In this document: piece by piece, positions 52,496 through 63,361 of the stretch | Layout of the letters: the number at the start of each line of letters is the position of its first letter | Position numbering within the stretch: position 1 is the stretch's first letter | Sequence record: OQ349392.1 | DNA length: 64,000 bases | Strand: one strand, 5' to 3' | Source of the DNA: Escherichia phage KIT06 | Program-made: the position numbers and the translations under genes | The notes under the pieces: generated by a model | Database searches by the model: none | Told to the model about the DNA's origin: nothing | Seen by the model: only the letters and a program-made list of their open reading frames with translations

Positions 52496-52529
52496 CCCTA
52501 TCAAAACAAATGTGAAATTGGAGAATAAA

Positions 52530-53498
52530 ATGAAAACTGTAACTATCAATAAGGGTATCTACTTCGGTAAAGAAATCTCTGGAACTTTTGAGCTTTTAGG
52601 CGAATGGTTCCCAGATAATGCTCCGGTAGATGCACAAGGAGATGGTAAAGTTTTTGTTGAAATTGACGGTAAACGTCGCGGTGTTTGGGTTTACAAATCA
52701 GATATTTCATATGATGGTGTAAAAGTTGAAGAAGTTAAAGAATCATATGAAGATATGAAAACCCGCATTAATAAAAGATTTAATGTTATGGGAATGATGA
52801 CGAATGGTATTATTAACGGAAATATTCGTTCATTGATTATCTCTGGCGCAGCAGGTATTGGTAAAACGTATTCTTTAGATAAAGCTTTAAATAAAGCAAA
52901 TGATATTGGATACATTGAATATAAAAGCATTAATGGTAAAATCTCTGGTATTGGTCTTTATGAACAGCTTTGGAATAATCGTGAAGAGAATTCTGTCCTT
53001 TTGATTGATGATGTGGATGTTTTCTCTGATATGGACATTCTTAATCTTCTAAAAGCTGCTCTGGACACTGGAGAGACCCGTAAAGTCTGCTGGAGCACTG
53101 CATCTTCTTACTTAGAAGAAAAAGGCATTGACCGTGAGTTTGAATTTAAAGGAACGATTGTTTTTATCACAAACGTTGACATTGACCGCGAATTAGACCG
53201 TGGTACTAAACTTGCCCCACACTTACAAGCATTAGTGTCCCGCTCAGTTTATTTGGATTTGGGTGTTCACACTAATGAAGAAATTATGGTCAGGGTTGAA
53301 GATGTTATTCTTTCAACTGACATGATGCAAAAGCGCGGTCTTTCTGATGAAGAAACTTATAAAGCATTATCATGGATGAAAGTTAATGTTAATCGTTTAC
53401 GCAATGTTTCACTGCGTACTGCTCTTTATCTTGCTGACTTTATTATGACCGACAAAAACGGTTGGGAAGAAATTGCTGAGGTTACTCTTCTGAAATAA
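52530..53498 (+). CDS. AAA-family ATPase
   Basis: Track ORF 52512..53498; ATG at 52530; Walker A ISGAAGIGKTYSL and Walker B VLLIDDVD. Confidence 0.7.
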   Translation: MKTVTINKGIYFGKEISGTFELLGEWFPDNAPVDAQGDGKVFVEIDGKRRGVWVYKSDISYDGVKVEEVKESYEDMKTRINKRFNVMGMMTNGIINGNIRSLIISGAAGIGKTYSLDKALNKANDIGYIEYKSINGKISGIGLYEQLWNNREENSVLLIDDVDVFSDMDILNLLKAALDTGETRKVCWSTASSYLEEKGIDREFEFKGTIVFITNVDIDRELDRGTKLAPHLQALVSRSVYLDLGVHTNEEIMVRVEDVILSTDMMQKRGLSDEETYKALSWMKVNVNRLRNVSLRTALYLADFIMTDKNGWEEIAEVTLLK

Positions 53499-53962: not shown

Positions 53963-54490
53963 ATGAACGCTAAAGATATTTTCAACTTGGTAAATTACAA
54001 TGATGGTAAATTTAAATCTGAAGCACAGAGTAAGTTCTTTAATGACATCTCAATCGGAGGTGAAATCACTGTTGATGGAGGACAAATTTACAAATCCCGT
54101 TGGAATTGGATCGTTATTATTGATGAGATTGGTATTGTAGAAATTTACAAGAATACGAATAAAAATCGTACATTACACTGGTCTCGTGATACTAACGAAC
54201 AGTACAAAAAGGATAAAGCATCTAAATTATCTCGTGTAACTCAAGAAGATATTGAGTTCATCAAGAAAGATATTTTAATGTATGATAACTTAATTGCTGA
54301 AGAGCAAGCTGTTATTGATAAATTTGATGAGATTAAAGCTTCTCGTGAAATTCCTGATTTTATGAAAGAATCAGTAAATGAACGATACACTCTCATTTCA
54401 GAGCGTATTGAAACTTACAAAAAGCAAAGAGCTGAACGCCAAAATACTCTTCGGAAGTTTGAAGAACGGTTAAAGACGGTACTCGCATAA
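53963..54490 (+). CDS. hypothetical protein
   Basis: 175-aa ORF with SD ggaggaa upstream. Confidence 0.55.
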   Translation: MNAKDIFNLVNYNDGKFKSEAQSKFFNDISIGGEITVDGGQIYKSRWNWIVIIDEIGIVEIYKNTNKNRTLHWSRDTNEQYKKDKASKLSRVTQEDIEFIKKDILMYDNLIAEEQAVIDKFDEIKASREIPDFMKESVNERYTLISERIETYKKQRAERQNTLRKFEERLKTVLA

Positions 54491-54960: not shown

Positions 54961-55851
54961 ATGTCAGTAGTAATTAATAATGTCAATGCAGTAATTAAAT
55001 CTTTAGTTAATAAAAAAATGATGAATGAATGGACTGTATTTCGTCGTGGAGAGCCAGATAAATTTTTTCATAGATTTAACCCAACTTTGGATTTGAATGT
55101 TATCGACAAAGATGTTCATGCAGAAATTTTAGATAAGTTTAAAGTTGATATTGGATTTGGATTAGAAAAACATTTACAGCGAACAACCGGGTCTGGAATG
55201 AGTTTATCTAATCGCATTATGAAAGCCCTTAATAAAATTGGAGCGTTGTCTCGTATTAATGCGAGTGAAATTCTTCGTAATTATAATAAAGGATATGACC
55301 TTTATGGTCGACTAATGCCGAAATTATCATTCGATCAAATGATTGCGGATTTGTGGGAAAATCAACGACGATTATTAGCATTAGGCGCTCGATTAGCTAA
55401 AGGTCTAGATAAACAAATGATTTTTAAGACCAATAATACAGAAGACCTTAAATGCTTTAAATTTAGTATTCGTGGAGATGATTATTACATCAGAGCTCGC
55501 TCTACCGATTATATTAATATGGGACATCATCTCTGTTTAGCTTTTGAAGTTTTAAAAGAAGCTGGAACACTAGAATATTCATCTGGTGCAAAATGCCCTA
55601 TTGGTTCAAGTTGTATTTTAATTTATCGCCCGGATGAATCTAGTTCAACTAAATTGCCTACAAAACCTGTACCGGTTCGTAGTAACGAAAAACATTCTGA
55701 ACAAATTGATTATTTTAATAAGCAGATTGAAGAGCTGAATATTTCTATTCAACAATATGATGATGAAATTTTCAGACTATCTGGATTGAGTAGTAAAGCT
55801 AAATCTGAGCGTGAAAAGTTAATTAAAATTGTTGATTTACTTAAATCTTAA
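54961..55851 (+). CDS. hypothetical protein, member 1 of a four-gene tandem family with a C-terminal coiled coil
   Basis: Track ORF 54940..55851; ATG at 54961 with SD gaggaaaat; C-terminal heptad-like ...SKAKSEREKLIKIVDLLKS. Confidence 0.6.
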   Translation: MSVVINNVNAVIKSLVNKKMMNEWTVFRRGEPDKFFHRFNPTLDLNVIDKDVHAEILDKFKVDIGFGLEKHLQRTTGSGMSLSNRIMKALNKIGALSRINASEILRNYNKGYDLYGRLMPKLSFDQMIADLWENQRRLLALGARLAKGLDKQMIFKTNNTEDLKCFKFSIRGDDYYIRARSTDYINMGHHLCLAFEVLKEAGTLEYSSGAKCPIGSSCILIYRPDESSSTKLPTKPVPVRSNEKHSEQIDYFNKQIEELNISIQQYDDEIFRLSGLSSKAKSEREKLIKIVDLLKS

Positions 55852-55859
55852 GGAACACC

Positions 55860-56888
55860 ATGAAAACTCGTTCTCAAATTGAAGATATGGTTCGTACTGC
55901 CAGTGATACTCGTAATGTTATGACATTTTTGTGTGAAAATAATTTAGACCCTGATAAAGTTAATCGTGTTATTCATCACTTTAAGTATACGAATAGCAGT
56001 GAATGGGTGCGTAATTTTAGTAAAGCGGGTTATATTACACAAATGACTGCTCGTGAGCAACTCACCGATTTCTGTAAAACTATTGATTATAAAAATCCTC
56101 TATTTGTTCAAGGCGTTGGTCAAAGTAAGGTCGATTTATCATCTGGATTTTTCAATCCAAATCATTATCGTATTGAATGGAGATTTATTGCTCTGTTCCG
56201 TAGACAATTAAAGCAAATTTTATCAACTGCGAGTCGATTAAAAGGTTCTGATATTAATTTAAAGAATCTGAAATTTGATGGTTATACTCTTCAGATGGAA
56301 GTAAGACCATTAAAAGAAAATAATAGAACTGCACGAATTAGCTTTAAACCTAATACAAAAAATTCTCTTTCAATTTGCGAATGCCTTAAATCGCAGTTGA
56401 CAGAAGCATTTAAGTATATGGATGTTGTTGCCGCTGTTCAGTCTAAGATTTTACCTCGTTTTGAGCGATTTAAATTAGACACAACAACATATGAACTTGA
56501 TATGATCGTTTCATTTAAATACGATTTTTTGAGAAAGGATGAAGTCACGCAAGAGAAAAAGCAAGAAGTGCAAGATAACTTAAATTTAAATTTATCCAAT
56601 TACTCATCAAACGACCCTAAATTTTGGATGTATAGCTCAAGCAATATAGATGCATGTAAACTTAATAAAGTGAGTTTTCTTCCTACTGAAAATTCAAATT
56701 TTAAACCTGTAGAAAAATGGCACGCTGACGCGATTGAGAAGTCTCTTGAGGCAGTAGATGATGAACTCGTTAAAGCGACCAATGAAGTGCTAGAAGCTGA
56801 AAAGGTGTTAGAACAAGCTCAGTCAAGGGTTCAAAATCTGACAAAGCAACGTTCTAAACTGAACAATGCACTAAATGCACTGAACTAG
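55860..56888 (+). CDS. hypothetical protein, member 2 of the tandem family
   Basis: 342-aa ORF; C-terminal ...EAEKVLEQAQSRVQNLTKQRSKLNNALNALN. Confidence 0.6.
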   Translation: MKTRSQIEDMVRTASDTRNVMTFLCENNLDPDKVNRVIHHFKYTNSSEWVRNFSKAGYITQMTAREQLTDFCKTIDYKNPLFVQGVGQSKVDLSSGFFNPNHYRIEWRFIALFRRQLKQILSTASRLKGSDINLKNLKFDGYTLQMEVRPLKENNRTARISFKPNTKNSLSICECLKSQLTEAFKYMDVVAAVQSKILPRFERFKLDTTTYELDMIVSFKYDFLRKDEVTQEKKQEVQDNLNLNLSNYSSNDPKFWMYSSSNIDACKLNKVSFLPTENSNFKPVEKWHADAIEKSLEAVDDELVKATNEVLEAEKVLEQAQSRVQNLTKQRSKLNNALNALN

Positions 56889-56917
56889 TTTACTTTGCCA
56901 CAAGGATGTGGTATAAT
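56889..56917 (+). promoter_or_regulatory. early promoter (GTTTAC ... tgtGGTATAAT)
   Basis: GTTTAC at 56889-56894 and extended -10 at 56907-56917. Confidence 0.65.
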
Positions 56918-56945
56918 GTTCTTACTTTCTACTGAGGAGATTAAT

Positions 56946-57947
56946 ATGACTCGTAACGAATATATCAAATCATTCAATAGTGTTATTGATGATAAAGCTA
57001 TACCGATGTTTGGCCAAAATAGCGTTCTTTCTATTATCAATCAATGGCTCAATAGTGTTGATGCAGGTATTGTTTCTTCTACTAAATTTATTCATGAAAT
57101 TCGTAAAATTTCTAGTCGTGTAGATAAAGATGTTATCAAGAAAACCTTTAAAGAGTCTCGTCTTCTTTCATATTTGGTTAATCGGGATATTCTTGGTAAT
57201 TTTGGGAAAGAAATTAAACGAACCAAAGATGTAGTAGGATATAATTGGTTCGGTGATGTTAATTCTTATCATCTTAATAATAAAGAAGACCCTGAGAATA
57301 TTTTTACTCGTCGTTGGATTAGTAATTTCAGACTTTTCAAAGGACAGATTCTAAAATCAGCTTCTAAATTATGTTATGGCGATTATCGTCAAATTCATCC
57401 TTTGGCTTCTGATATGATTATCATAAAAGAATATGAACTTGATAAAAATAAAGTATCTATTTTTGTGAATTATGGATTTTTTACACCAGAAACTAACCAA
57501 AAGAATATTAATAAATTTTTCTCAATTGCTAGCACTATAACTCGTCAATTAGAAACCGCATTACTTTGTATGGAAACGGTAGAAAATATTCATACTTATC
57601 CTTTTAAGAATATGTGTGGTTGGGAAGGATATAAAATTATAATTAGCCTTCGTGAAGTGAAATGCGCTTATTCACCGACTGATAAAGAAATTTACCAACA
57701 AAAATGTGATGAAATTGTGAATACTCCTAAAGAAGAAACTACCCTTGAAGAACTAATGGATAATCTTGACGATTCGCCTGAACCGATAGAAATTCGTCCA
57801 GAAGTTATTGCACTAGAAAAAGCTTATAAAGAAGTTCTAGAAATTTCTAATAAAGCGCAGAAAGAATATGAGAAGGCTAAAAGGATTTGGGAAGAATCTG
57901 TTAATCGTCTGGATCGTCTTGAACAAGCTTTACAGCTAATTAAGTAA
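56946..57947 (+). CDS. hypothetical protein, member 3 of the tandem family
   Basis: Track ORF 56895..57947; ATG at 56946 with SD gaggag; C-terminal ...KAKRIWEESVNRLDRLEQALQLIK. Confidence 0.6.
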   Translation: MTRNEYIKSFNSVIDDKAIPMFGQNSVLSIINQWLNSVDAGIVSSTKFIHEIRKISSRVDKDVIKKTFKESRLLSYLVNRDILGNFGKEIKRTKDVVGYNWFGDVNSYHLNNKEDPENIFTRRWISNFRLFKGQILKSASKLCYGDYRQIHPLASDMIIIKEYELDKNKVSIFVNYGFFTPETNQKNINKFFSIASTITRQLETALLCMETVENIHTYPFKNMCGWEGYKIIISLREVKCAYSPTDKEIYQQKCDEIVNTPKEETTLEELMDNLDDSPEPIEIRPEVIALEKAYKEVLEISNKAQKEYEKAKRIWEESVNRLDRLEQALQLIK

Positions 57948-57999
57948 TTTAAAGCCAAGGATGGCTCGGAGTATAAATCATTAACCAAATGAGAAGAAC

Positions 58000-58929
58000 A
58001 TGAAAACTCGTAAACATTATATTGATTATTTTGATAGTCTTATTACTAAACACCGTAATTATCAGATCGGACACAGAGCAGTAATCAATAATATTCTTCG
58101 TGATTTCCTTCAATATGTTGGCCAGGAAAATCATATCTGTAAAGATACACAGAACGCTTATTCTCATTCGTTGGGCAATTTGCTTCAATGGTTTAAACGT
58201 TCTCGTATGTTATCTTCTACTGTAGCTCGCGATAACATTAAAAACTTTATGAAGCCGAGTTTTATTAAATCTGCGACATCTATAACTGATTTGGTTGAAT
58301 TTACTATTGTTAACGATGTTAAAAAGACCCATTTGGCTGATTGGCTATCTACCATTCCTGAAACTAAATTTGCTGATAAATTTGCCTGTCAATTTAATGA
58401 CCAAGTGAATATGCTTTTTAAGCATGCTCGTAAACTATTTACCGCAGGCGATGACCGTACAAATACAGTTCATGTTAAGGACTGGGTTATTGCTGATGAA
58501 GTAACACACAAGCCAGGTGGTTCATCAGTATTAATTAATATCCAGGTTCCTTATTATTACTCACGTAATCTCGGCACCATGACAGCTAGAGAAATTAATA
58601 AGCACAACAAAACTATTCGTTCGTTGTCTTATAAACTCCGCATGATGCTAAAAATTATGGACGTAGTGGAAATGTATGACGAAACCGAAGATAACGGTTC
58701 AATGTTATACAGTTCACGCATTCTAATTAAACTGAAGAACCCTAATACATATAAGACAGTTGTAAAAGAGCCTAAAGTAGAAAAGATTGATAACTTGAGC
58801 GAAGAACGTGAATATCTCAATGCTCGCTTAATTGAAGTTGAATCCCAGATTGCCGAACACACCAAATTGTTAAAAGCTCTTAATGCAAAAGCAAATGGTT
58901 TACGCAATGCTATTGAGGTATTGAAATGA
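58000..58929 (+). CDS. hypothetical protein, member 4 of the tandem family
   Basis: 309-aa ORF; C-terminal ...[24 protein letters not shown]. Confidence 0.6.
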   Translation: MKTRKHYIDYFDSLITKHRNYQIGHRAVINNILRDFLQYVGQENHICKDTQNAYSHSLGNLLQWFKRSRMLSSTVARDNIKNFMKPSFIKSATSITDLVEFTIVNDVKKTHLADWLSTIPETKFADKFACQFNDQVNMLFKHARKLFTAGDDRTNTVHVKDWVIADEVTHKPGGSSVLINIQVPYYYSRNLGTMTAREINKHNKTIRSLSYKLRMMLKIMDVVEMYDETEDNGSMLYSSRILIKLKNPNTYKTVVKEPKVEKIDNLSEEREYLNARLIEVESQIAEHTKLLKALNAKANGLRNAIEVLK

Positions 58930-59243
58930 AAAAGCGTCTATTAGAAGATATTGCAGCTTCAAGTAATTCCAGTCTAATTAAAATTATTATGGCTGGTGAA
59001 GAAGACGATCTGGAAATGCGTGGAAAGATTCATGGTTGCGATGATTTAGACTTTAAACCTCCAGCCTGGGATGCCATTATGGTTATGGTTGAACGCCGCG
59101 AAAGGGCTTCTAAGAATGTTCCGAACTGCCCAAAATGTGGTACTGAACAGGTTCAATTAATTCATTGGCAGACTAGTAATCTTCGTTATAAATGTCGTCA
59201 TTGCAAACACCGATTTAACCGAGAAGAAAATGACCAAGCGTAA
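58926..59243 (+). CDS. zinc-ribbon protein
   Basis: 105-aa ORF with CPKCG...CRHCKH C4 motif. Confidence 0.55.
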
Positions 59244-59472
59244 AGAATATATGGAGATTGCTGAAAAGGCAGTCCGCGAATTAGCAATAGCTTATTATTA
59301 TGAACATGGTAAATTTCCTGATAGATACAGCGTGCTTAAATCTGCTTTAACTCGTTCATATAAAAATATGCTATCAGAAGTAAGTGATATTATATACAAA
59401 CATAAAGAACAAACAGGTCAAAGTCTTGATTACGACGAGACTTTTAAACAAGTACTAGGAATTAAGGAATAA
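59230..59472 (+). CDS. hypothetical protein
   Basis: 80-aa ORF overlapping the previous gene. Confidence 0.5.
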
Positions 59473-59473
59473 T

Positions 59474-59737
59474 ATGTTTAAAGTATATGGTTATGATAGC
59501 AGCATCCATAAATGTGTGTATTGCGATAATGCAAAACGTCTTTTGACTGTGAAGAAACAGCCGTTTGAATTTATCAACATTATGCCGGAAAAAGGTGTTT
59601 TTGATGATGAGAAAATCGCTGAGCTTCTAACTAAACTGGGTCGTGATACTCAAATTGGTTTGACAATGCCACAAGTATTTGCTCCTGATGGAAGTCATAT
59701 TGGTGGATTTGACCAATTGCGGGAATACTTTAAATGA
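59474..59737 (+). CDS. nrdC: phage glutaredoxin/thioredoxin NrdC
   Basis: 87-aa ORF MFKVYGYDSSIHKCVYCDNAKRLL... with CVYC redox motif. Confidence 0.92.
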   Translation: MFKVYGYDSSIHKCVYCDNAKRLLTVKKQPFEFINIMPEKGVFDDEKIAELLTKLGRDTQIGLTMPQVFAPDGSHIGGFDQLREYFK

Positions 59738-59949
59738 TGCTCGAAGGAACTGATTATATCCATGACTACCGCGGAAGCTCGGTATATGTAGGTGATGAGG
59801 TTGCAGTTTATTACGGGTATGGAACTTTGATGACAGCAAAGGTTATTCAAATTAAAAATAATCGTGCTAAACTCGAAGTTTATTATTCTAACGGTGAAAA
59901 GTCTATTTCTAAATGGAAATACGGCGATTGCATGGTCAAACTGGGGTAA
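59734..59949 (+). CDS. hypothetical protein
   Basis: 71-aa ORF, ATGA overlap with nrdC. Confidence 0.5.
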   Translation: MMLEGTDYIHDYRGSSVYVGDEVAVYYGYGTLMTAKVIQIKNNRAKLEVYYSNGEKSISKWKYGDCMVKLG

Positions 59950-59951
59950 AT

Positions 59952-60122
59952 ATGATTTACGATATTAGTGTATCAAGAACTCCGTCAATGGTTACTATTC
60001 CAGCCGAAGAATTAGATCGTCTTCAGAAAATTGAAGAGCTTCTTTGGGAAATTGAATCTGATTTGCCATCAGGATTAGAATCCTGGATTGATTATGAAGA
60101 ACTTAATAAATTGCGAAATTAA
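59952..60122 (+). CDS. hypothetical small protein
   Basis: Track ORF 59913..60122; ATG at 59952; 56 aa. Confidence 0.45.
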   Translation: MIYDISVSRTPSMVTIPAEELDRLQKIEELLWEIESDLPSGLESWIDYEELNKLRN

Positions 60123-60133
60123 AGTGGTGAAAA

Positions 60134-60454
60134 ATGAATATTGAAAATAAATTAGATGTTGATGCAGTTCTGAGTGAAATCATCGAAGACCATGATGCAT
60201 TTTCAGAAAATTATGATTTCGATTTTTCGGATTATCTTAAACCTGTCGAAATAGAAGATTGGGTACAAGATGGCAAATGCCAATATCGGAAGTGCGTTTA
60301 TTTTAGTCCGAAACATAATGTACATGTTTCCGTAAATGAATCTCGCTCAGGTTCTTACCATTCTGACTGGTATTATGCAGTTCCAACTGTTGAACTAGTC
60401 GAGCCTCGTGAACGCGTAGTAACTCAGACAATACGAGAATGGATTACGCTATAA
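60134..60454 (+). CDS. hypothetical acidic protein
   Basis: 106-aa ORF. Confidence 0.5.
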   Translation: MNIENKLDVDAVLSEIIEDHDAFSENYDFDFSDYLKPVEIEDWVQDGKCQYRKCVYFSPKHNVHVSVNESRSGSYHSDWYYAVPTVELVEPRERVVTQTIREWITL

Positions 60455-61073: not shown

Positions 61074-61547
61074 ATGTTATTGACTGGCAAATTATACAAA
61101 GAAGAAAAACAAAAATTTTATGATGCACAAAACGGTAAATGCTTAATTTGCCAACGAGAACTAAATCCTGATGTTCAAGCTAATCACCTTGACCATGACC
61201 ATGAATTAAATGGACCAAAAGCAGGAAAGGTACGTGGGTTGCTATGTAATCTCTGTAATGCTGCAGAAGGTCAAATGAAGCATAAATTCAATCGTTCTGG
61301 CTTAAAGGGACAAGGTGTTGATTATCTTGAATGGCTAGAAAATTTACTTACTTATTTAAAATCCGATTACACCCAAAATAATATTCACCCTAACTTCGTT
61401 GGAGATAAATCAAAGGAATTTTCTCGTTTAGGAAAAGAGGAAATGATGGCTGAGATGCTTCAAAGAGGATTTGAATATAATGAATCTGACACTAAAACAC
61501 AATTAATAGCTTCATTTAAGAAGCAGCTTAGAAAGAGTTTAAAATGA
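61074..61547 (+). CDS. 49: endonuclease VII (Holliday junction resolvase)
   Basis: 157-aa ORF; CxxC...HLDHDH...CNLCN zinc and active-site motifs; size matches T4 gp49. Confidence 0.88.
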   Translation: MLLTGKLYKEEKQKFYDAQNGKCLICQRELNPDVQANHLDHDHELNGPKAGKVRGLLCNLCNAAEGQMKHKFNRSGLKGQGVDYLEWLENLLTYLKSDYTQNNIHPNFVGDKSKEFSRLGKEEMMAEMLQRGFEYNESDTKTQLIASFKKQLRKSLK

Positions 61548-63361
61548 CAATTGAAAAAGAAATTGAAGGATTGATTCATAAAACTAATAAAGACCTTTTA
61601 AACGAGAATGCTAATAAAGATTCTCGTGTTTTTCCAACTCAACGGGACCTTATGGCTGGTATTGTGTCTAAACACATTGCCAAAAATATGGTCCCGTCTT
61701 TTATTATGAAAGCGCATGAAAGCGGAATTATTCATTTCCATGATATTGATTATTCCCCTGCTCTTCCATTTACTAATTGCTGTTTAGTAGATTTAAAAGG
61801 AATGCTTGAGAACGGATTTAAGCTCGGTAATGCACAGATTGAAACTCCTAAATCAATCGGTGTTGCTACTGCAATTATGGCACAAATTACTGCACAGGTT
61901 GCTTCCCATCAATATGGTGGAACGACTTTTGCGAATGTAGATAAAGTACTTTCTCCTTATGTTAAACGCACCTATGCAAAACATATTGAGGACGCAGAAA
62001 AATGGCAAATCGCTGATGCGTTGAATTATGCCCAATCTAAAACAGAAAAAGATGTATACGATGCATTCCAAGCTTATGAATACGAAGTAAATACTCTCTT
62101 TAGTTCAAACGGACAAACGCCTTTTGTAACAATTACATTTGGTACGGGAACTGACTGGACTGAACGAATGATTCAGAAAGCAATTCTGAAAAATCGTATT
62201 AAAGGCCTTGGTCGCGACGGGATAACTCCTATTTTCCCTAAACTTGTTATGTTCGTTGAAGAAGGTGTTAATCTTTATAAAGACGATCCGAACTATGATA
62301 TTAAGCAGCTTGCTCTAGAATGTGCAAGTAAAAGAATGTATCCTGACATCATTTCGGCTAAGAACAATAAAGCTATCACCGGTTCATCTATTCCTGTTTC
62401 TCCAATGGGTTGTCGTAGTTTCTTGGGTGTATGGAAAGATTCGACTGGTAATGAAATTCTTGATGGACGTAATAATCTTGGTGTTGTAACACTGAATCTT
62501 CCTCGCATTGCACTAGATTCTTATATTGGAACACAGTTCAATGAACAGAAATTTGCCGAATTGTTCAATGAGAGAATGGATTTATGTTTTGAAGCATTGA
62601 TGTGTAGAATTAGTTCATTAAAAGGAGTTAAAGCTACTGTTGCTCCTATTCTTTACCAAGAAGGTGCATTCGGGGTTCGTCTTAAACCTGATGACGATAT
62701 AATTGAGTTATTTAAAAACGGTAGAAGTTCAGTGTCTTTGGGATACATTGGTATTCACGAATTGAATATTCTTGTCGGTCGTGATATTGGACAAGAAATT
62801 TTAACTAAAATGAATGCTCATCTTAAGCAGTGGACTGAAAGAACTGGTTTTGCTTTTAGTTTGTATTCGACACCTGCTGAAAACCTGTGCTATCGCTTCT
62901 GTAAACTTGATACCGAAAAATATGGAAGTGTAAAAGATGTTACCGATAAAGGCTGGTACACTAACAGTTTCCACGTTTCAGTAGAAGAAAATATCACTCC
63001 GTTTGAAAAGATTTCTCGTGAAGCACCATATCATTTCATTGCGACAGGTGGTCACATTTCTTATGTTGAACTTCCTGATATGAAAAATAACCTAAAAGGT
63101 CTTGAGGCTGTATGGGATTATGCTGCGCAACATTTAGATTATTTTGGCGTTAACATGCCAGTAGATAAATGTTTTACGTGTGGAAGTACCCATGAAATGA
63201 CTCCTACTGAAAACGGATTTGTTTGTTCTATTTGTGGAGAAACTGATCCTAAAAAGATGAACACAATAAGAAGAACATGCGGATATCTTGGAACTCCTAG
63301 CGTTGTTCCATGGAATTTAGGTAAAATGAAAGAAATGGTAAAACGAGTAAAACATGCATAG
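61544..63361 (+). CDS. nrdD: anaerobic ribonucleoside-triphosphate reductase NrdD, uninterrupted
   Basis: 605-aa continuous ORF; C-terminal Zn-ribbon (CFTCGSTHE...CSICGETD) and glycyl-radical motif RRTCGYLG; ATGA overlap with gene 49. Confidence 0.95.
   Translation: MTIEKEIEGLIHKTNKDLLNENANKDSRVFPTQRDLMAGIVSKHIAKNMVPSFIMKAHESGIIHFHDIDYSPALPFTNCCLVDLKGMLENGFKLGNAQIETPKSIGVATAIMAQITAQVASHQYGGTTFANVDKVLSPYVKRTYAKHIEDAEKWQIADALNYAQSKTEKDVYDAFQAYEYEVNTLFSSNGQTPFVTITFGTGTDWTERMIQKAILKNRIKGLGRDGITPIFPKLVMFVEEGVNLYKDDPNYDIKQLALECASKRMYPDIISAKNNKAITGSSIPVSPMGCRSFLGVWKDSTGNEILDGRNNLGVVTLNLPRIALDSYIGTQFNEQKFAELFNERMDLCFEALMCRISSLKGVKATVAPILYQEGAFGVRLKPDDDIIELFKNGRSSVSLGYIGIHELNILVGRDIGQEILTKMNAHLKQWTERTGFAFSLYSTPAENLCYRFCKLDTEKYGSVKDVTDKGWYTNSFHVSVEENITPFEKISREAPYHFIATGGHISYVELPDMKNNLKGLEAVWDYAAQHLDYFGVNMPVDKCFTCGSTHEMTPTENGFVCSICGETDPKKMNTIRRTCGYLGTPSVVPWNLGKMKEMVKRVKHA

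What the first reader, a model, noticed from the sequence alone, without database searches (positions are those of the whole stretch)
54961..58929. Four tandem, highly diverged paralogs (about 300-350 aa) sharing only a C-terminal coiled-coil
Consecutive genes at 54961, 55860, 56946 and 58000 have unrelated-looking N-terminal regions, but each ends in a 30-40-residue heptad-like segment (...KLIKIVDLLKS, ...KQRSKLNNALNALN, ...VNRLDRLEQALQLIK, ...[12 protein letters not shown]). Tandem diversification with a conserved oligomerisation module is a pattern seen in phage families under arms-race selection. I do not recognise them as characterised T4 proteins.
Basis: seen in the sequence. Interest (0 to 1): 0.6.

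Follow-up and report, generated by a model that had tools for sequence, protein, structure and literature searches.

The report
Fast-evolving T4 anti-defence paralog cluster
The four neighbouring genes are the T4 genes nrdC.6, nrdC.5, nrdC.4 and nrdC.3, true but very diverged copies of one gene that evolve far faster than their neighbours; nrdC.5 is already known to switch off the bacterial immune protein Dsr1, so the other three are good candidates for further immune blockers.

Summary
The four genes are the orthologs of T4 nrdC.6, nrdC.5, nrdC.4 and nrdC.3, in a T4-like (Tequatrovirus) phage. They are paralogs, and what they share is mainly the globular core, not only the C-terminal helix. 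This rests on profile-profile comparison with the tails removed, bridging homologs from other phage genera, two AlphaFold models with the same order of elements, and reciprocal Foldseek hits. Tail sequences are significantly alike only between nrdC.5 and nrdC.3, although all four end in L-x-x-(A/I)-(L/I/V)-x-x-L-K.

The family has one syntenic copy in several other Straboviridae genera examined. It has three copies in Mosig-, Dhaka- and Gaprivervirus and four in Tequatrovirus. It diverges far faster than its neighbours: nrdC.5 is 21-28% identical between genera against 83-92% for gene 49 and nrdC, and dN/dS is 0.15-0.27 against 0.01-0.07. nrdC.3 occurs as two deep alleles.

Published work shows that T4 nrdC.5 overcomes Dsr1. 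Other papers report neighbouring genes as inhibitors of Septu, Druantia III and OLD.

Best reading: an expanding family of early, dispensable counter-defence proteins. The mechanism (sensor blocking, oligomerisation) is inferred, not shown.

The parts
54961..55851 (+). nrdC.6 ortholog (296 aa); Pfam PF26899 Phage_T4_Y05B, phrog_2257
   Evidence: 97% identical to T4 nrdC.6. phrog_2257 E 3e-152. Homologs carry PF26899. AlphaFold model pLDDT 77.8, pTM 0.65.
55860..56888 (+). nrdC.5 ortholog (342 aa); Pfam DUF7235 (PF23882). The T4 protein counteracts Dsr1.
   Evidence: DUF7235 at 396.8 bits against a cut-off of 30. 94% identical to T4 nrdC.5. Anti-Dsr1 function of T4 nrdC.5: PMC9391042.
56889..56917 (+). 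T4 early-type promoter-like site (GTTTACT, 17 nt, TG-n-TATAAT) 29 nt upstream of the nrdC.4 start
   Evidence: Consensus scan 10/12 with an extended -10; sequence read. The region as a whole holds no more promoter-like sites than its shuffles, so this is a match, not proof.
56946..57947 (+). nrdC.4 ortholog (333 aa); Pfam PF26897 Phage_T4_Y04OP, phrog_1435
   Evidence: 97% identical to T4 nrdC.4. phrog_1435 E 3e-168. AlphaFold model pLDDT 81.4, pTM 0.67.
58000..58929 (+). nrdC.3 ortholog (309 aa); same Pfam and PHROG family as nrdC.4. Carries the allele that is 60% identical to the T4/T6 protein.
   Evidence: phrog_1435 E 1e-116. hhalign against nrdC.4: probability 98%, E 1e-13. 60% identical to the T4/T6 protein and 79% to the Mosigvirus AV117 protein.
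58100..58900 (+). Divergent allele cassette inside nrdC.3
   Evidence: DNA identity to T4 and T6 falls to 57-68% here. It is 94-98% in most neighbouring 200-nt windows, and 94-98% to locus L005 across this stretch.
57126..57389 (+). Shared core motif region in nrdC.4 (aa 61-148): helix 'FK.SRLLS.LV..D....F', then helices 'F......ILK.A.K...GD.R'
   Evidence: Nearly invariant columns of alignments A1 and A3. Aligned collinearly with nrdC.5 aa 48-135 and nrdC.6 aa 82-151 by hhalign. These are helices H61-84 and H119-148 of the model.
55204..55413 (+). Same core motif region in nrdC.6 (aa 82-151): 'LSR.NA..IL.NY', 'GYDLYGR', 'NQRRLLALGARLA.G.DKQM'
   Evidence: Invariant columns of alignment A2; hhalign alignment; helices H82-107 and H124-151 of the model.
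56001..56264 (+). Same core motif region in nrdC.5 (aa 48-135): 'FSKAGYITQMTAREQLTDF' ... 'FRRQLKQILSTASRLKGSDINLKN'
   Evidence: hhalign alignment to nrdC.3+nrdC.4. Residues 121-180 show no variable site among 51 Tequatrovirus sequences.
55687..55848 (+). C-terminal helical hairpin of nrdC.6 (aa 243-295), ending KLIKIVDLLKS
   Evidence: Model helices H243-272 and H278-295. Invariant D267-F271, K281, E283, R284 and L293-K295 within the family.
56709..56885 (+). C-terminal heptad-like helix of nrdC.5 (aa 284-342), ending KLNNALNALN
   Evidence: Heptad score 0.9; 0 of 200 shuffles reach it. The tail profile matches the nrdC.3 tail at E 2e-11.
57798..57944 (+). C-terminal long helix of nrdC.4 (aa 285-333), ending RLEQALQLIK
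   Evidence: Model helix H285-332. The last 19 residues are nearly invariant among orthologs that are only 39-53% identical overall.
58783..58926 (+). C-terminal heptad-like helix of nrdC.3 (aa 262-309), ending [10 protein letters not shown]
   Evidence: Heptad score 0.72; 0 of 200 shuffles reach it. Matches the nrdC.5 tail.

Best explanation
The four genes are the orthologs of T4 nrdC.6, nrdC.5, nrdC.4 and nrdC.3. They are tandem paralogs of one fast-evolving protein superfamily of T4-like phages. The family has one syntenic copy in several other Straboviridae genera examined and is expanded to three or four copies in the T-even coliphages.

Each protein has four parts: an N-terminal helical region; a conserved helix-helix-loop core; a small beta-beta-alpha-beta-beta domain; and, after a disordered linker, a C-terminal amphipathic helix ending in L-x-x-A/I-L/I/V-x-x-L-K.

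They are early, dispensable accessory proteins sitting in a stretch of the genome that holds several reported counter-defence genes. nrdC.5 neutralises the host NAD-depleting immune protein Dsr1; this was shown genetically for T4. The other three most likely neutralise other host immune sensors, or other variants of the same kind of sensor (inferred).

The proposed mechanism is inferred, not shown. The protein is made early and binds the sensor part of the immune protein, blocking it before the late phage protein that triggers it appears. For Dsr1 that trigger is reported to be the major capsid protein. The variable N-terminal and post-core surfaces would give target specificity. The conserved C-terminal helix would make the inhibitor oligomeric or dock it to a common partner.
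For: Identity:
- 94-97% protein identity and full synteny with T4 nrdC.6, nrdC.5 and nrdC.4. nrdC.3 is 60% identical to the T4 allele.

Paralogy:
- BLASTP nrdC.3~nrdC.4, E 5e-7.
- Both fall in phrog_1435 and PF26897.
- hhalign on cores only: nrdC.5~(nrdC.3+nrdC.4) 92%, E 7e-7; nrdC.6~(nrdC.3+nrdC.4) 77%, E 2e-5; nrdC.6~nrdC.5 39%, E 3e-4. Controls stayed below 1%.
- The 324-aa protein of Jiaodavirus FRZ284 is hit over the same residues by both the nrdC.3+nrdC.4 core model and the nrdC.6 core model.
- The AlphaFold models of nrdC.6 and nrdC.4 have the same order of secondary-structure elements.
- The nrdC.4 model hits the JS10 NrdC.6 model (Foldseek E 2.5e-5, probability 1.0). Both models hit the same 300-370-aa uncharacterised proteins of Pectobacterium, Enterobacter, Acinetobacter, Klebsiella, Erwinia, Serratia and Yersinia T4-like phages.

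Fast evolution:
- Between genera nrdC.5 is 21-28% identical, nrdC.6 33-51% and nrdC.4 39-51%. Gene 49, nrdC and nrdC.10 are 77-92%.
- dN/dS is 0.15-0.27 against 0.01-0.07 for most neighbours.
- nrdC.3 has two deep alleles with sharp boundaries. The Lazarusvirus orthologs are either 95-100% or about 36% identical.
- Copy number differs between genera.

Function:
- Expressing T4 nrdC.5 restores infection by a T4 deletion mutant on MG1655 carrying Dsr1 of ECOR17 (PMC9391042).
- Dsr1 is reported to be triggered by a phage major capsid protein through a TPR sensor (preprint PMC12803255).
- Neighbours are reported inhibitors: nrdC.1 against Septu, the nrdC.8 ortholog bas37_0203 against Druantia III, and T6 gp49.2 against OLD.
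- All four genes are non-essential in T4 on E. coli K-12.
- An early-type promoter lies upstream of nrdC.4.
Against: - Only nrdC.5 has a demonstrated function. nrdC.3, nrdC.4 and nrdC.6 gave no phenotype in the two conditional HIDEN-SEQ sheets I read.
- No binding data or complex model exist, so direct sensor blocking is an analogy with DSAD1/DSR2.
- Gene-wide dN/dS is below 1, so relaxed constraint alone could explain part of the divergence.
- The sequence link of nrdC.6 to the others is moderate (E 2e-5 at best) and leans on predicted structures with TM-scores of only 0.36-0.5.
- nrdC.5 itself was not modelled.
- nrdC.4 is split in some phages (locus L006). The 155-158-aa fragments in T2 and vB_EcoM_G8 suggest the same. 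The gene can therefore be lost without harm, at least on some hosts.
Confidence: 0.55

Rival explanations
1. The four are paralogs, but only nrdC.5 is a counter-defence factor. The others are drifting, largely redundant or decaying duplicates, or serve another host-takeover role unrelated to immunity.
For: - No phenotype for nrdC.3, nrdC.4 or nrdC.6 in the HIDEN-SEQ sheets read, and all are non-essential.
- nrdC.4 is split in locus L006. Fragments in T2 and G8 suggest the same.
- dN/dS is below 1 but raised, which fits relaxed constraint.
Against: - The three genes are kept as full-length ORFs in most of 650 or more phage records.
- Each family has strongly invariant motifs and an almost invariant C-terminal tail across genera. 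Decaying genes would not show this.
- The genes sit among reported anti-defence genes.
Confidence: 0.25
2. The proteins are decoys. Their central alpha/beta domain mimics a conserved virion protein fold (tail-terminator-like), and they are made early to occupy host pattern-recognition sensors without activating them.
For: - Host sensors that recognise tail terminator, tail tube and capsid folds have been reported (PMC12803255).
Against: - No tail-terminator family appears in Pfam or in the PDB sequence searches.
- The only known target, Dsr1, is reported to sense the capsid protein, not a tail terminator.
- nrdC.5 itself was not modelled.
Confidence: 0.1
3. The four are not homologous. The resemblance is composition plus convergent C-terminal amphipathic helices.
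For: - Plain BLASTP finds nothing between nrdC.6 or nrdC.5 and the others.
- Pfam keeps three separate families.
- The tails are significantly alike only for nrdC.5/nrdC.3.
Against: - Core-only profile comparisons are significant while the controls are not.
- Motifs are collinear and bridging homologs exist.
- The two models have matching element order and give reciprocal Foldseek hits.
- The genes are adjacent and syntenic across genera.
Confidence: 0.07

Closest known systems
T4 NrdC.5 (DUF7235, PF23882), counter-defence against Dsr1 (Srikant, Guegler & Laub, eLife 2022)
   Same: The gene at 55860-56888 is its ortholog: 94% identity, same position, Pfam hit of 397 bits. The other three genes are its distant paralogs.
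   Different: The activity was shown only for the T4 protein, by complementation, and its mechanism is unknown. nrdC.3, nrdC.4 and nrdC.6 belong to other Pfam families (PF26897, PF26899) and have no assigned function.
DSAD1 of phage SPbeta, inhibitor of the sirtuin defence DSR2
   Same: A phage protein that neutralises a SIR2-type NADase immune protein which senses a late structural protein. It is the model for the blocking mechanism proposed here.
T4 internal proteins IPI, IPII and IPIII, and the variable ip locus
   Same: A locus of diverged, dispensable anti-defence proteins that differ between T-even phages and share a short conserved terminal module on otherwise different bodies.
   Different: The internal proteins are packaged and injected, share an N-terminal capsid-targeting sequence, and are small. 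The nrdC.3-nrdC.6 proteins are 300-340 aa, appear to be expressed early, share a globular core and carry their conserved tail at the C-terminus.
Phage tail terminator proteins (lambda gpU fold)
   Different: No sequence relationship was found. The nrdC proteins have extra N-terminal helical and C-terminal coiled-coil parts, appear to be early rather than late genes, and are dispensable. The similarity is weak and rests on a predicted model.

Membership tests
DUF7235 / T4 NrdC.5 (PF23882) | Match to the Pfam model above its gathering score | tested here: met
   Window 55860-56888 scores 396.8 bits against a cut-off of 30, covering the full model length. The other three genes have no hit to this model.
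DUF7235 / T4 NrdC.5 (PF23882) | Orthology to T4 nrdC.5 (position and identity) | tested here: met
   94% identity, and the same position between nrdC.6 and nrdC.4.
DUF7235 / T4 NrdC.5 (PF23882) | Neutralises Dsr1 | not testable with these tools
   Shown for the T4 protein only (PMC9391042).
Phage_T4_Y04OP (PF26897; phrog_1435) | Match to the family profile | tested here: met
   The local Pfam copy lacks PF26897. Both nrdC.4 (E 3e-168) and nrdC.3 (E 1e-116) match phrog_1435. The near-identical genes in locus L023 and all nrdC.4 homologs carry PF26897.
Phage_T4_Y05B (PF26899; phrog_2257) | Match to the family profile | tested here: met
   nrdC.6 matches phrog_2257 at E 3e-152. All 105 homologs carry PF26899.
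One superfamily uniting nrdC.3, nrdC.4, nrdC.5 and nrdC.6 | Significant profile-profile similarity in the globular core, beyond the coiled coil | tested here: met
   With tails removed: nrdC.5~(nrdC.3+nrdC.4) E 7e-7, nrdC.6~(nrdC.3+nrdC.4) E 2e-5, nrdC.6~nrdC.5 E 3e-4. Controls stayed below 1% probability.
One superfamily uniting nrdC.3, nrdC.4, nrdC.5 and nrdC.6 | Same fold | tested here: inconclusive
   The nrdC.6 and nrdC.4 models have the same element order and give reciprocal Foldseek hits (E 2.5e-5; shared targets at E 1e-7 to 1e-3). TM-scores are only 0.36-0.5 with large rmsd, probably because of flexible helices. nrdC.5 and nrdC.3 were not modelled here.
Coiled-coil oligomerisation module | Heptad periodicity in a long C-terminal helix | tested here: inconclusive
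   Clear for nrdC.5 and nrdC.3, weaker for nrdC.4, not significant for nrdC.6 with a crude score. Helices are predicted in both models. In nrdC.6 the tail folds as a hairpin of two helices.
Coiled-coil oligomerisation module | Forms homo- or hetero-oligomers | not testable with these tools
   No multimer prediction or experiment was available.
Tail terminator (gpU-like) proteins | Fold match with a strong score | tested here: inconclusive
Tail terminator (gpU-like) proteins | Sequence-family membership | tested here: not met
   No tail-terminator family among Pfam hits up to E 10. None in the profile search of PDB sequences.
DSAD1-like inhibitors of defence sirtuins | Structural or sequence similarity to DSAD1 | tested here: not met
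Phage anti-defence island | Neighbouring genes with demonstrated counter-defence activity | tested here: met
   From the literature: nrdC.5 against Dsr1; nrdC.1 against Septu and the nrdC.8 ortholog against Druantia III; T6 gp49.2 against OLD. The orthologs are present in the window.

The most novel reading that the evidence does not exclude
The nrdC.3-nrdC.6 superfamily is a set of early-made mimics of a conserved virion protein fold (tail-terminator-like). They would jam the bacterial pattern-recognition sensors that detect late structural proteins (Dsr1, Avs-type and similar). Each paralog and each deep allele would be tuned to a different sensor, and the conserved C-terminal helix would assemble them into oligomers matching the oligomeric state of the sensors.
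Probability: 0.1. Interest if true: 0.8.

Novelty: new member of a known kind. Interest (0 to 1): 0.5.

Why it matters
Bacterial immune sensors that recognise conserved phage proteins are being found quickly, but few phage inhibitors of them are known. If the three uncharacterised paralogs of the anti-Dsr1 protein NrdC.5 also block immune sensors, this cluster gives a ready set of related inhibitors with different specificities. The single-copy relatives in Acinetobacter, Klebsiella, Yersinia, Enterobacter and other T4-like phages would extend that set.

Such a set is useful for three things: mapping which residues decide specificity, predicting the host range of therapeutic T4-like phages, and explaining why this part of the T-even genome is so variable. 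The family is invisible to ordinary sequence searches. A profile search of 1.84 billion proteins found only 9 hits, which shows how quickly such genes leave the range of recognisable sequence similarity.

Tried and rejected
- **Pfam and PDB sequence searches.** Pfam up to E 10 on 22 family members and a profile search of PDB sequences gave only noise: designed helical repeats and scattered DUFs. The weak 'Phage integrase SAM-like' (E 0.065) and 'PHL' (E 0.0012, below cut-off) hits of nrdC.3 were not reproduced across the family, so I dropped them.
- **Exhaustive HMMER search.** A search with the nrdC.3+nrdC.4 profile found only 9 proteins. It therefore could not supply bridging sequences. Those came instead from reading syntenic loci of other genera.
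- **The tail as the common module.** Tail-only profiles match only for nrdC.5/nrdC.3.
- **Database annotations.** 'Thioredoxin' (many records), 'Mur ligase domain' and the T6 record's 'tail sheath stabilizer and completion protein' for these genes are propagated or shifted labels. The same T6 record calls nrdD 'RNA ligase 1'. I did not use them as evidence.
- **bas37_0203.** I checked whether this published anti-Druantia gene is one of the four. By size and position it is the nrdC.8 ortholog, not a member.
- **HIDEN-SEQ supplementary tables.** No conditional phenotype for nrdC.3-nrdC.6 in the two sheets I read. The remaining sheets were not read.
- **Minus-strand ORFs.** Those under the cluster are short (92 aa or less) and have no support.

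Full report
**What is there.** The window is a T4-like phage. The 4.1-kb region is up to 97% identical to Tequatrovirus genomes and matches 656 phage records. The + strand is the early-gene coding strand.
- 54961-55851 (296 aa from the ATG behind a GAGG ribosome-binding site)
- 55860-56888 (342 aa)
- 56946-57947 (333 aa)
- 58000-58929 (309 aa)

By synteny and identity they are the orthologs of T4 nrdC.6, nrdC.5, nrdC.4 and nrdC.3. Upstream lie nrdC.10, nrdC.9, nrdC.8 and nrdC.7. Downstream lie nrdC.2, nrdC.1, nrdC, gene 49 and nrdD. The quoted C-terminal sequences are exact.

**Are they paralogs, and what do they share?**

*Plain searches and curated families.* BLASTP links only nrdC.3 and nrdC.4. 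It links them through about 230 N-terminal residues (25% identity, E 5e-7), not through the tail. PHROGs puts these two in one family (phrog_1435). Current Pfam does the same (PF26897 'Phage_T4_Y04OP'). nrdC.5 is DUF7235 (PF23882) and nrdC.6 is PF26899.

*Profile-profile comparison.* I built family alignments from database homologs and from syntenic loci of other genera, then compared them with hhalign. Full length: nrdC.4~nrdC.3 98% (E 1e-13); nrdC.5~(nrdC.3+nrdC.4) 93% (E 4e-7); nrdC.6~(nrdC.3+nrdC.4) 16% (E 1.5e-3). Unrelated neighbours (nrdC.8, nrdC.10) scored below 4%. The alignments are collinear and line up the same motifs in all families. These are a helix '(F/L)SR(L/I)........(I/L).N(F/Y)' and a helix-loop 'F/W......L...A.(K/R)L..G.D'.

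*Is the coiled coil driving the matches?* I cut the tails off. Core only: nrdC.4~nrdC.3 E 3e-14; nrdC.5~(nrdC.3+nrdC.4) E 5e-5; nrdC.6~(nrdC.3+nrdC.4) E 4e-4; controls 5% or less. After adding distant-genus members to each profile: nrdC.5~(nrdC.3+nrdC.4) 92% (E 7e-7, 135 columns); nrdC.6~(nrdC.3+nrdC.4) 77% (E 2e-5, 187 columns); nrdC.6~nrdC.5 39% (E 3e-4); controls below 1%.

*Tails alone.* These are significantly alike only for nrdC.5~nrdC.3 (97%, E 2e-11). nrdC.3 therefore looks like a nrdC.4-type core with a nrdC.5-type tail.

*Bridging homolog.* The 324-aa protein of Klebsiella phage FRZ284 is hit over the same residues by both the nrdC.3+nrdC.4 core model (E 8e-7) and the nrdC.6 core model (E 3e-3). 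These E-values refer to a 12-sequence set.

**Structure.** AlphaFold2 with family alignments gave usable models: nrdC.6 with pLDDT 77.8 and pTM 0.65, and nrdC.4 with pLDDT 81.4 and pTM 0.67. Both have the same order of elements:
- N-terminal helices
- two helices carrying the SR...NF motif
- three helices carrying the A.(K/R)L..G.D motif
- a beta hairpin, a long helix and a second beta hairpin
- a low-confidence linker
- C-terminal helices: one 48-residue helix in nrdC.4, a two-helix hairpin in nrdC.6

Foldseek against predicted viral structures gave these results. The nrdC.4 model hits NrdC.6 of phage JS10 (E 2.5e-5, probability 1.0) and NrdC.3 of fPS-65 (E 6e-8). Both models hit the same 300-370-aa uncharacterised proteins of Pectobacterium PM2, Enterobacter IME523, Acinetobacter Acj61 and Acj9, Klebsiella Mineola, Erwinia Cronus, Serratia CBH8 and Yersinia fHe-Yen9-01. 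TM-scores are modest (0.36-0.5) and rmsd values are large, which I attribute to the long flexible helices. I could not superpose my two models directly, and nrdC.5 was not modelled.

Taken together, common ancestry of all four is well supported. It is very strong for nrdC.3/nrdC.4, strong for nrdC.5 and good for nrdC.6.

**The C-terminal tail.** Within each orthologous family the tail is among the most conserved parts. The last 19 residues of nrdC.4 are nearly invariant among orthologs that are 39-53% identical overall. The same holds for D267-F271, K281-R284 and L293-K295 of nrdC.6. All four proteins end in L-x-x-(A/I)-(L/I/V)-x-x-L-K. A post-hoc pattern for this matches only these 4 of the 218 six-frame ORFs in the window. 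My crude heptad score is significant for nrdC.5 and nrdC.3, and for nrdC.4 (though its best window is internal), but not for nrdC.6. Oligomerisation could not be tested.

**Distribution and evolution.**

*Narrow in sequence space.* An exhaustive HMMER search of 1.84 billion representatives with the nrdC.3+nrdC.4 profile found 9 proteins.

*Copy number.* Tequatrovirus has nrdC.6, nrdC.5, nrdC.4 and nrdC.3. Mosigvirus AV117 has a nrdC.6-like, a nrdC.5-like and a nrdC.3-like gene. The Dhaka- and Gaprivervirus-type loci have nrdC.6, a nrdC.5-like gene and one nrdC.4-like gene. Karam-, Jiaoda-, Teguna-, Lazarus- and Acajnonavirus have one (Tegunavirus two) 290-335-aa members, most of them between nrdC.10 and nrdC or gene 49.

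*Divergence.* Between genera nrdC.5 is 21-28% identical, nrdC.6 33-51% and nrdC.4 39-51%. The neighbours 49, nrdC and nrdC.10 are 77-92%. Within Tequatrovirus, pairwise dN/dS (Nei-Gojobori) is 0.15-0.27 for the four genes against 0.01-0.07 for most neighbours, and dN is 4-40 times higher. This is a raised rate, not proof of positive selection.

*Deep alleles.* nrdC.3 has deep alleles. The window's version is 96-98% identical to some Tequatroviruses, 79% to Mosigvirus and only 60% to T4 and T6. The DNA break is sharp at about 58100-58900. Lazarusvirus orthologs show the same split: 95-100% or about 36%.

*Where the variation falls.* In nrdC.5, variation within Tequatrovirus is concentrated at residues 21-55 and 198-280. 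Residues 121-180 are invariant.

*Gene loss.* nrdC.4 is split in locus L006. Fragments of 155-158 aa in T2 and G8 suggest the same there.

**Function, from the literature.**
- Srikant, Guegler and Laub (eLife 2022, PMC9391042) found that a T4 deletion mutant cannot grow on ECOR17 because of Dsr1. [quoted passage not shown]
- A 2026 preprint (PMC12803255) reports that the TPR sensor of E. coli Dsr1, which is related to that of Avs7, is triggered by a phage major capsid protein.
- The HIDEN-SEQ preprint (10.1101/2025.11.20.689424) reports nrdC.1 as a Septu inhibitor and bas37_0203 as a Druantia III inhibitor. By size (528 nt) and position, bas37_0203 is the nrdC.8 ortholog.
- PMC13096335 reports T6 gp49.2 as an OLD inhibitor.
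- In HIDEN-SEQ all four genes are non-essential on K-12 and show no effect in the two conditional sheets I read.
- I found no paper stating that nrdC.3 to nrdC.6 are one family.

**How it most likely works.**

*Shown:* nrdC.5 overcomes Dsr1; the genes are dispensable on K-12.

*Supported but indirect:* early expression. Srikant et al. call T4 nrdC.5 an early gene, and an early-type promoter-like site lies upstream of nrdC.4.

**Verdict.** The genes and tails are real, but the cores are related too. This is a known T4 gene cluster with one genetically characterised member. The new points are the superfamily link, its spread across Straboviridae, and the expansion and allele turnover in the T-even phages. 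I rate it a new member of a known kind, of moderate interest.

Noticed in passing
window 53963-54490 (nrdC.8 ortholog): This 175-aa gene is 99-100% identical to T4/T6 nrdC.8. By size (528 nt) and position it corresponds to bas37_0203, which the HIDEN-SEQ preprint reports as an inhibitor of Druantia type III.
   Followed up: partly
window 59230-59472 (nrdC.1 ortholog): 97.5% identical to T4 nrdC.1, which the HIDEN-SEQ preprint reports as an inhibitor of the Septu defence system.
   Followed up: partly
window 59734-60454: The window carries two small T6-type ORFs (59734-59949, 71 aa; 59913-60122, 69 aa; 96-99% identical to T6) and also the T4-type 49.2 (60134-60454, 106 aa; 95% to T4, absent from T6). 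By gene order, the T6 'gp49.2' reported as an OLD inhibitor is probably the 69-aa type. This segment is a mosaic of T4 and T6 content: DNA identity to T4 drops to 36-52% at 59700-60100.
   Followed up: partly
window 58926-59243 (nrdC.2): nrdC.2 also has deep alleles within Tequatrovirus (66-90% protein identity, mean dS about 0.8). They assort independently of the nrdC.3 alleles.
   Followed up: partly
window 61544-63361 (nrdD): nrdD is one uninterrupted 605-aa ORF here. In T4 it is split by a group I intron that carries I-TevII. This phage therefore lacks that intron.
   Followed up: no
L006 7971-9003; BFVD entries A0A2Z5WKJ2 (T2) and A0A482N302 (vB_EcoM_G8): nrdC.4 is broken into two ORFs (193 + 158 aa) in locus L006. 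Entries of 155-158 aa in T2 and G8 suggest a similar split there. This points to occasional loss of the gene.
   Followed up: partly
L023 (GCA_025336695.1, contig JAODFN010000001.1, 489 kb, labelled E. coli): A complete T4-like nrdC region, running from tk to nrdG, lies 14-31 kb into a 489-kb contig of an E. coli assembly. T4-like phages are not known to integrate, so this is probably a chimeric assembly or phage contamination.
   Followed up: no
L019 13788-14795 and related Acinetobacter phages: Within the genus Lazarusvirus, the single family member next to nrdC is either 95-100% or only about 36% identical between otherwise close phages. This is the same two-allele pattern as nrdC.3.
   Followed up: partly
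window 52512-53498 (nrdC.10): The AAA-type ATPase nrdC.10 is conserved far more widely than its neighbours. It matches 1311 phage records, including Vibrio, Aeromonas, Xanthomonas and jumbo phages. That made it a convenient anchor for finding this variable region in distant phages.
   Followed up: partly
many GenBank records under the match: nrdC.3 to nrdC.10 are widely mislabelled 'thioredoxin', apparently carried over from the gene name nrdC.x. One record family labels one of them 'Mur ligase domain-containing protein'.
   Followed up: no
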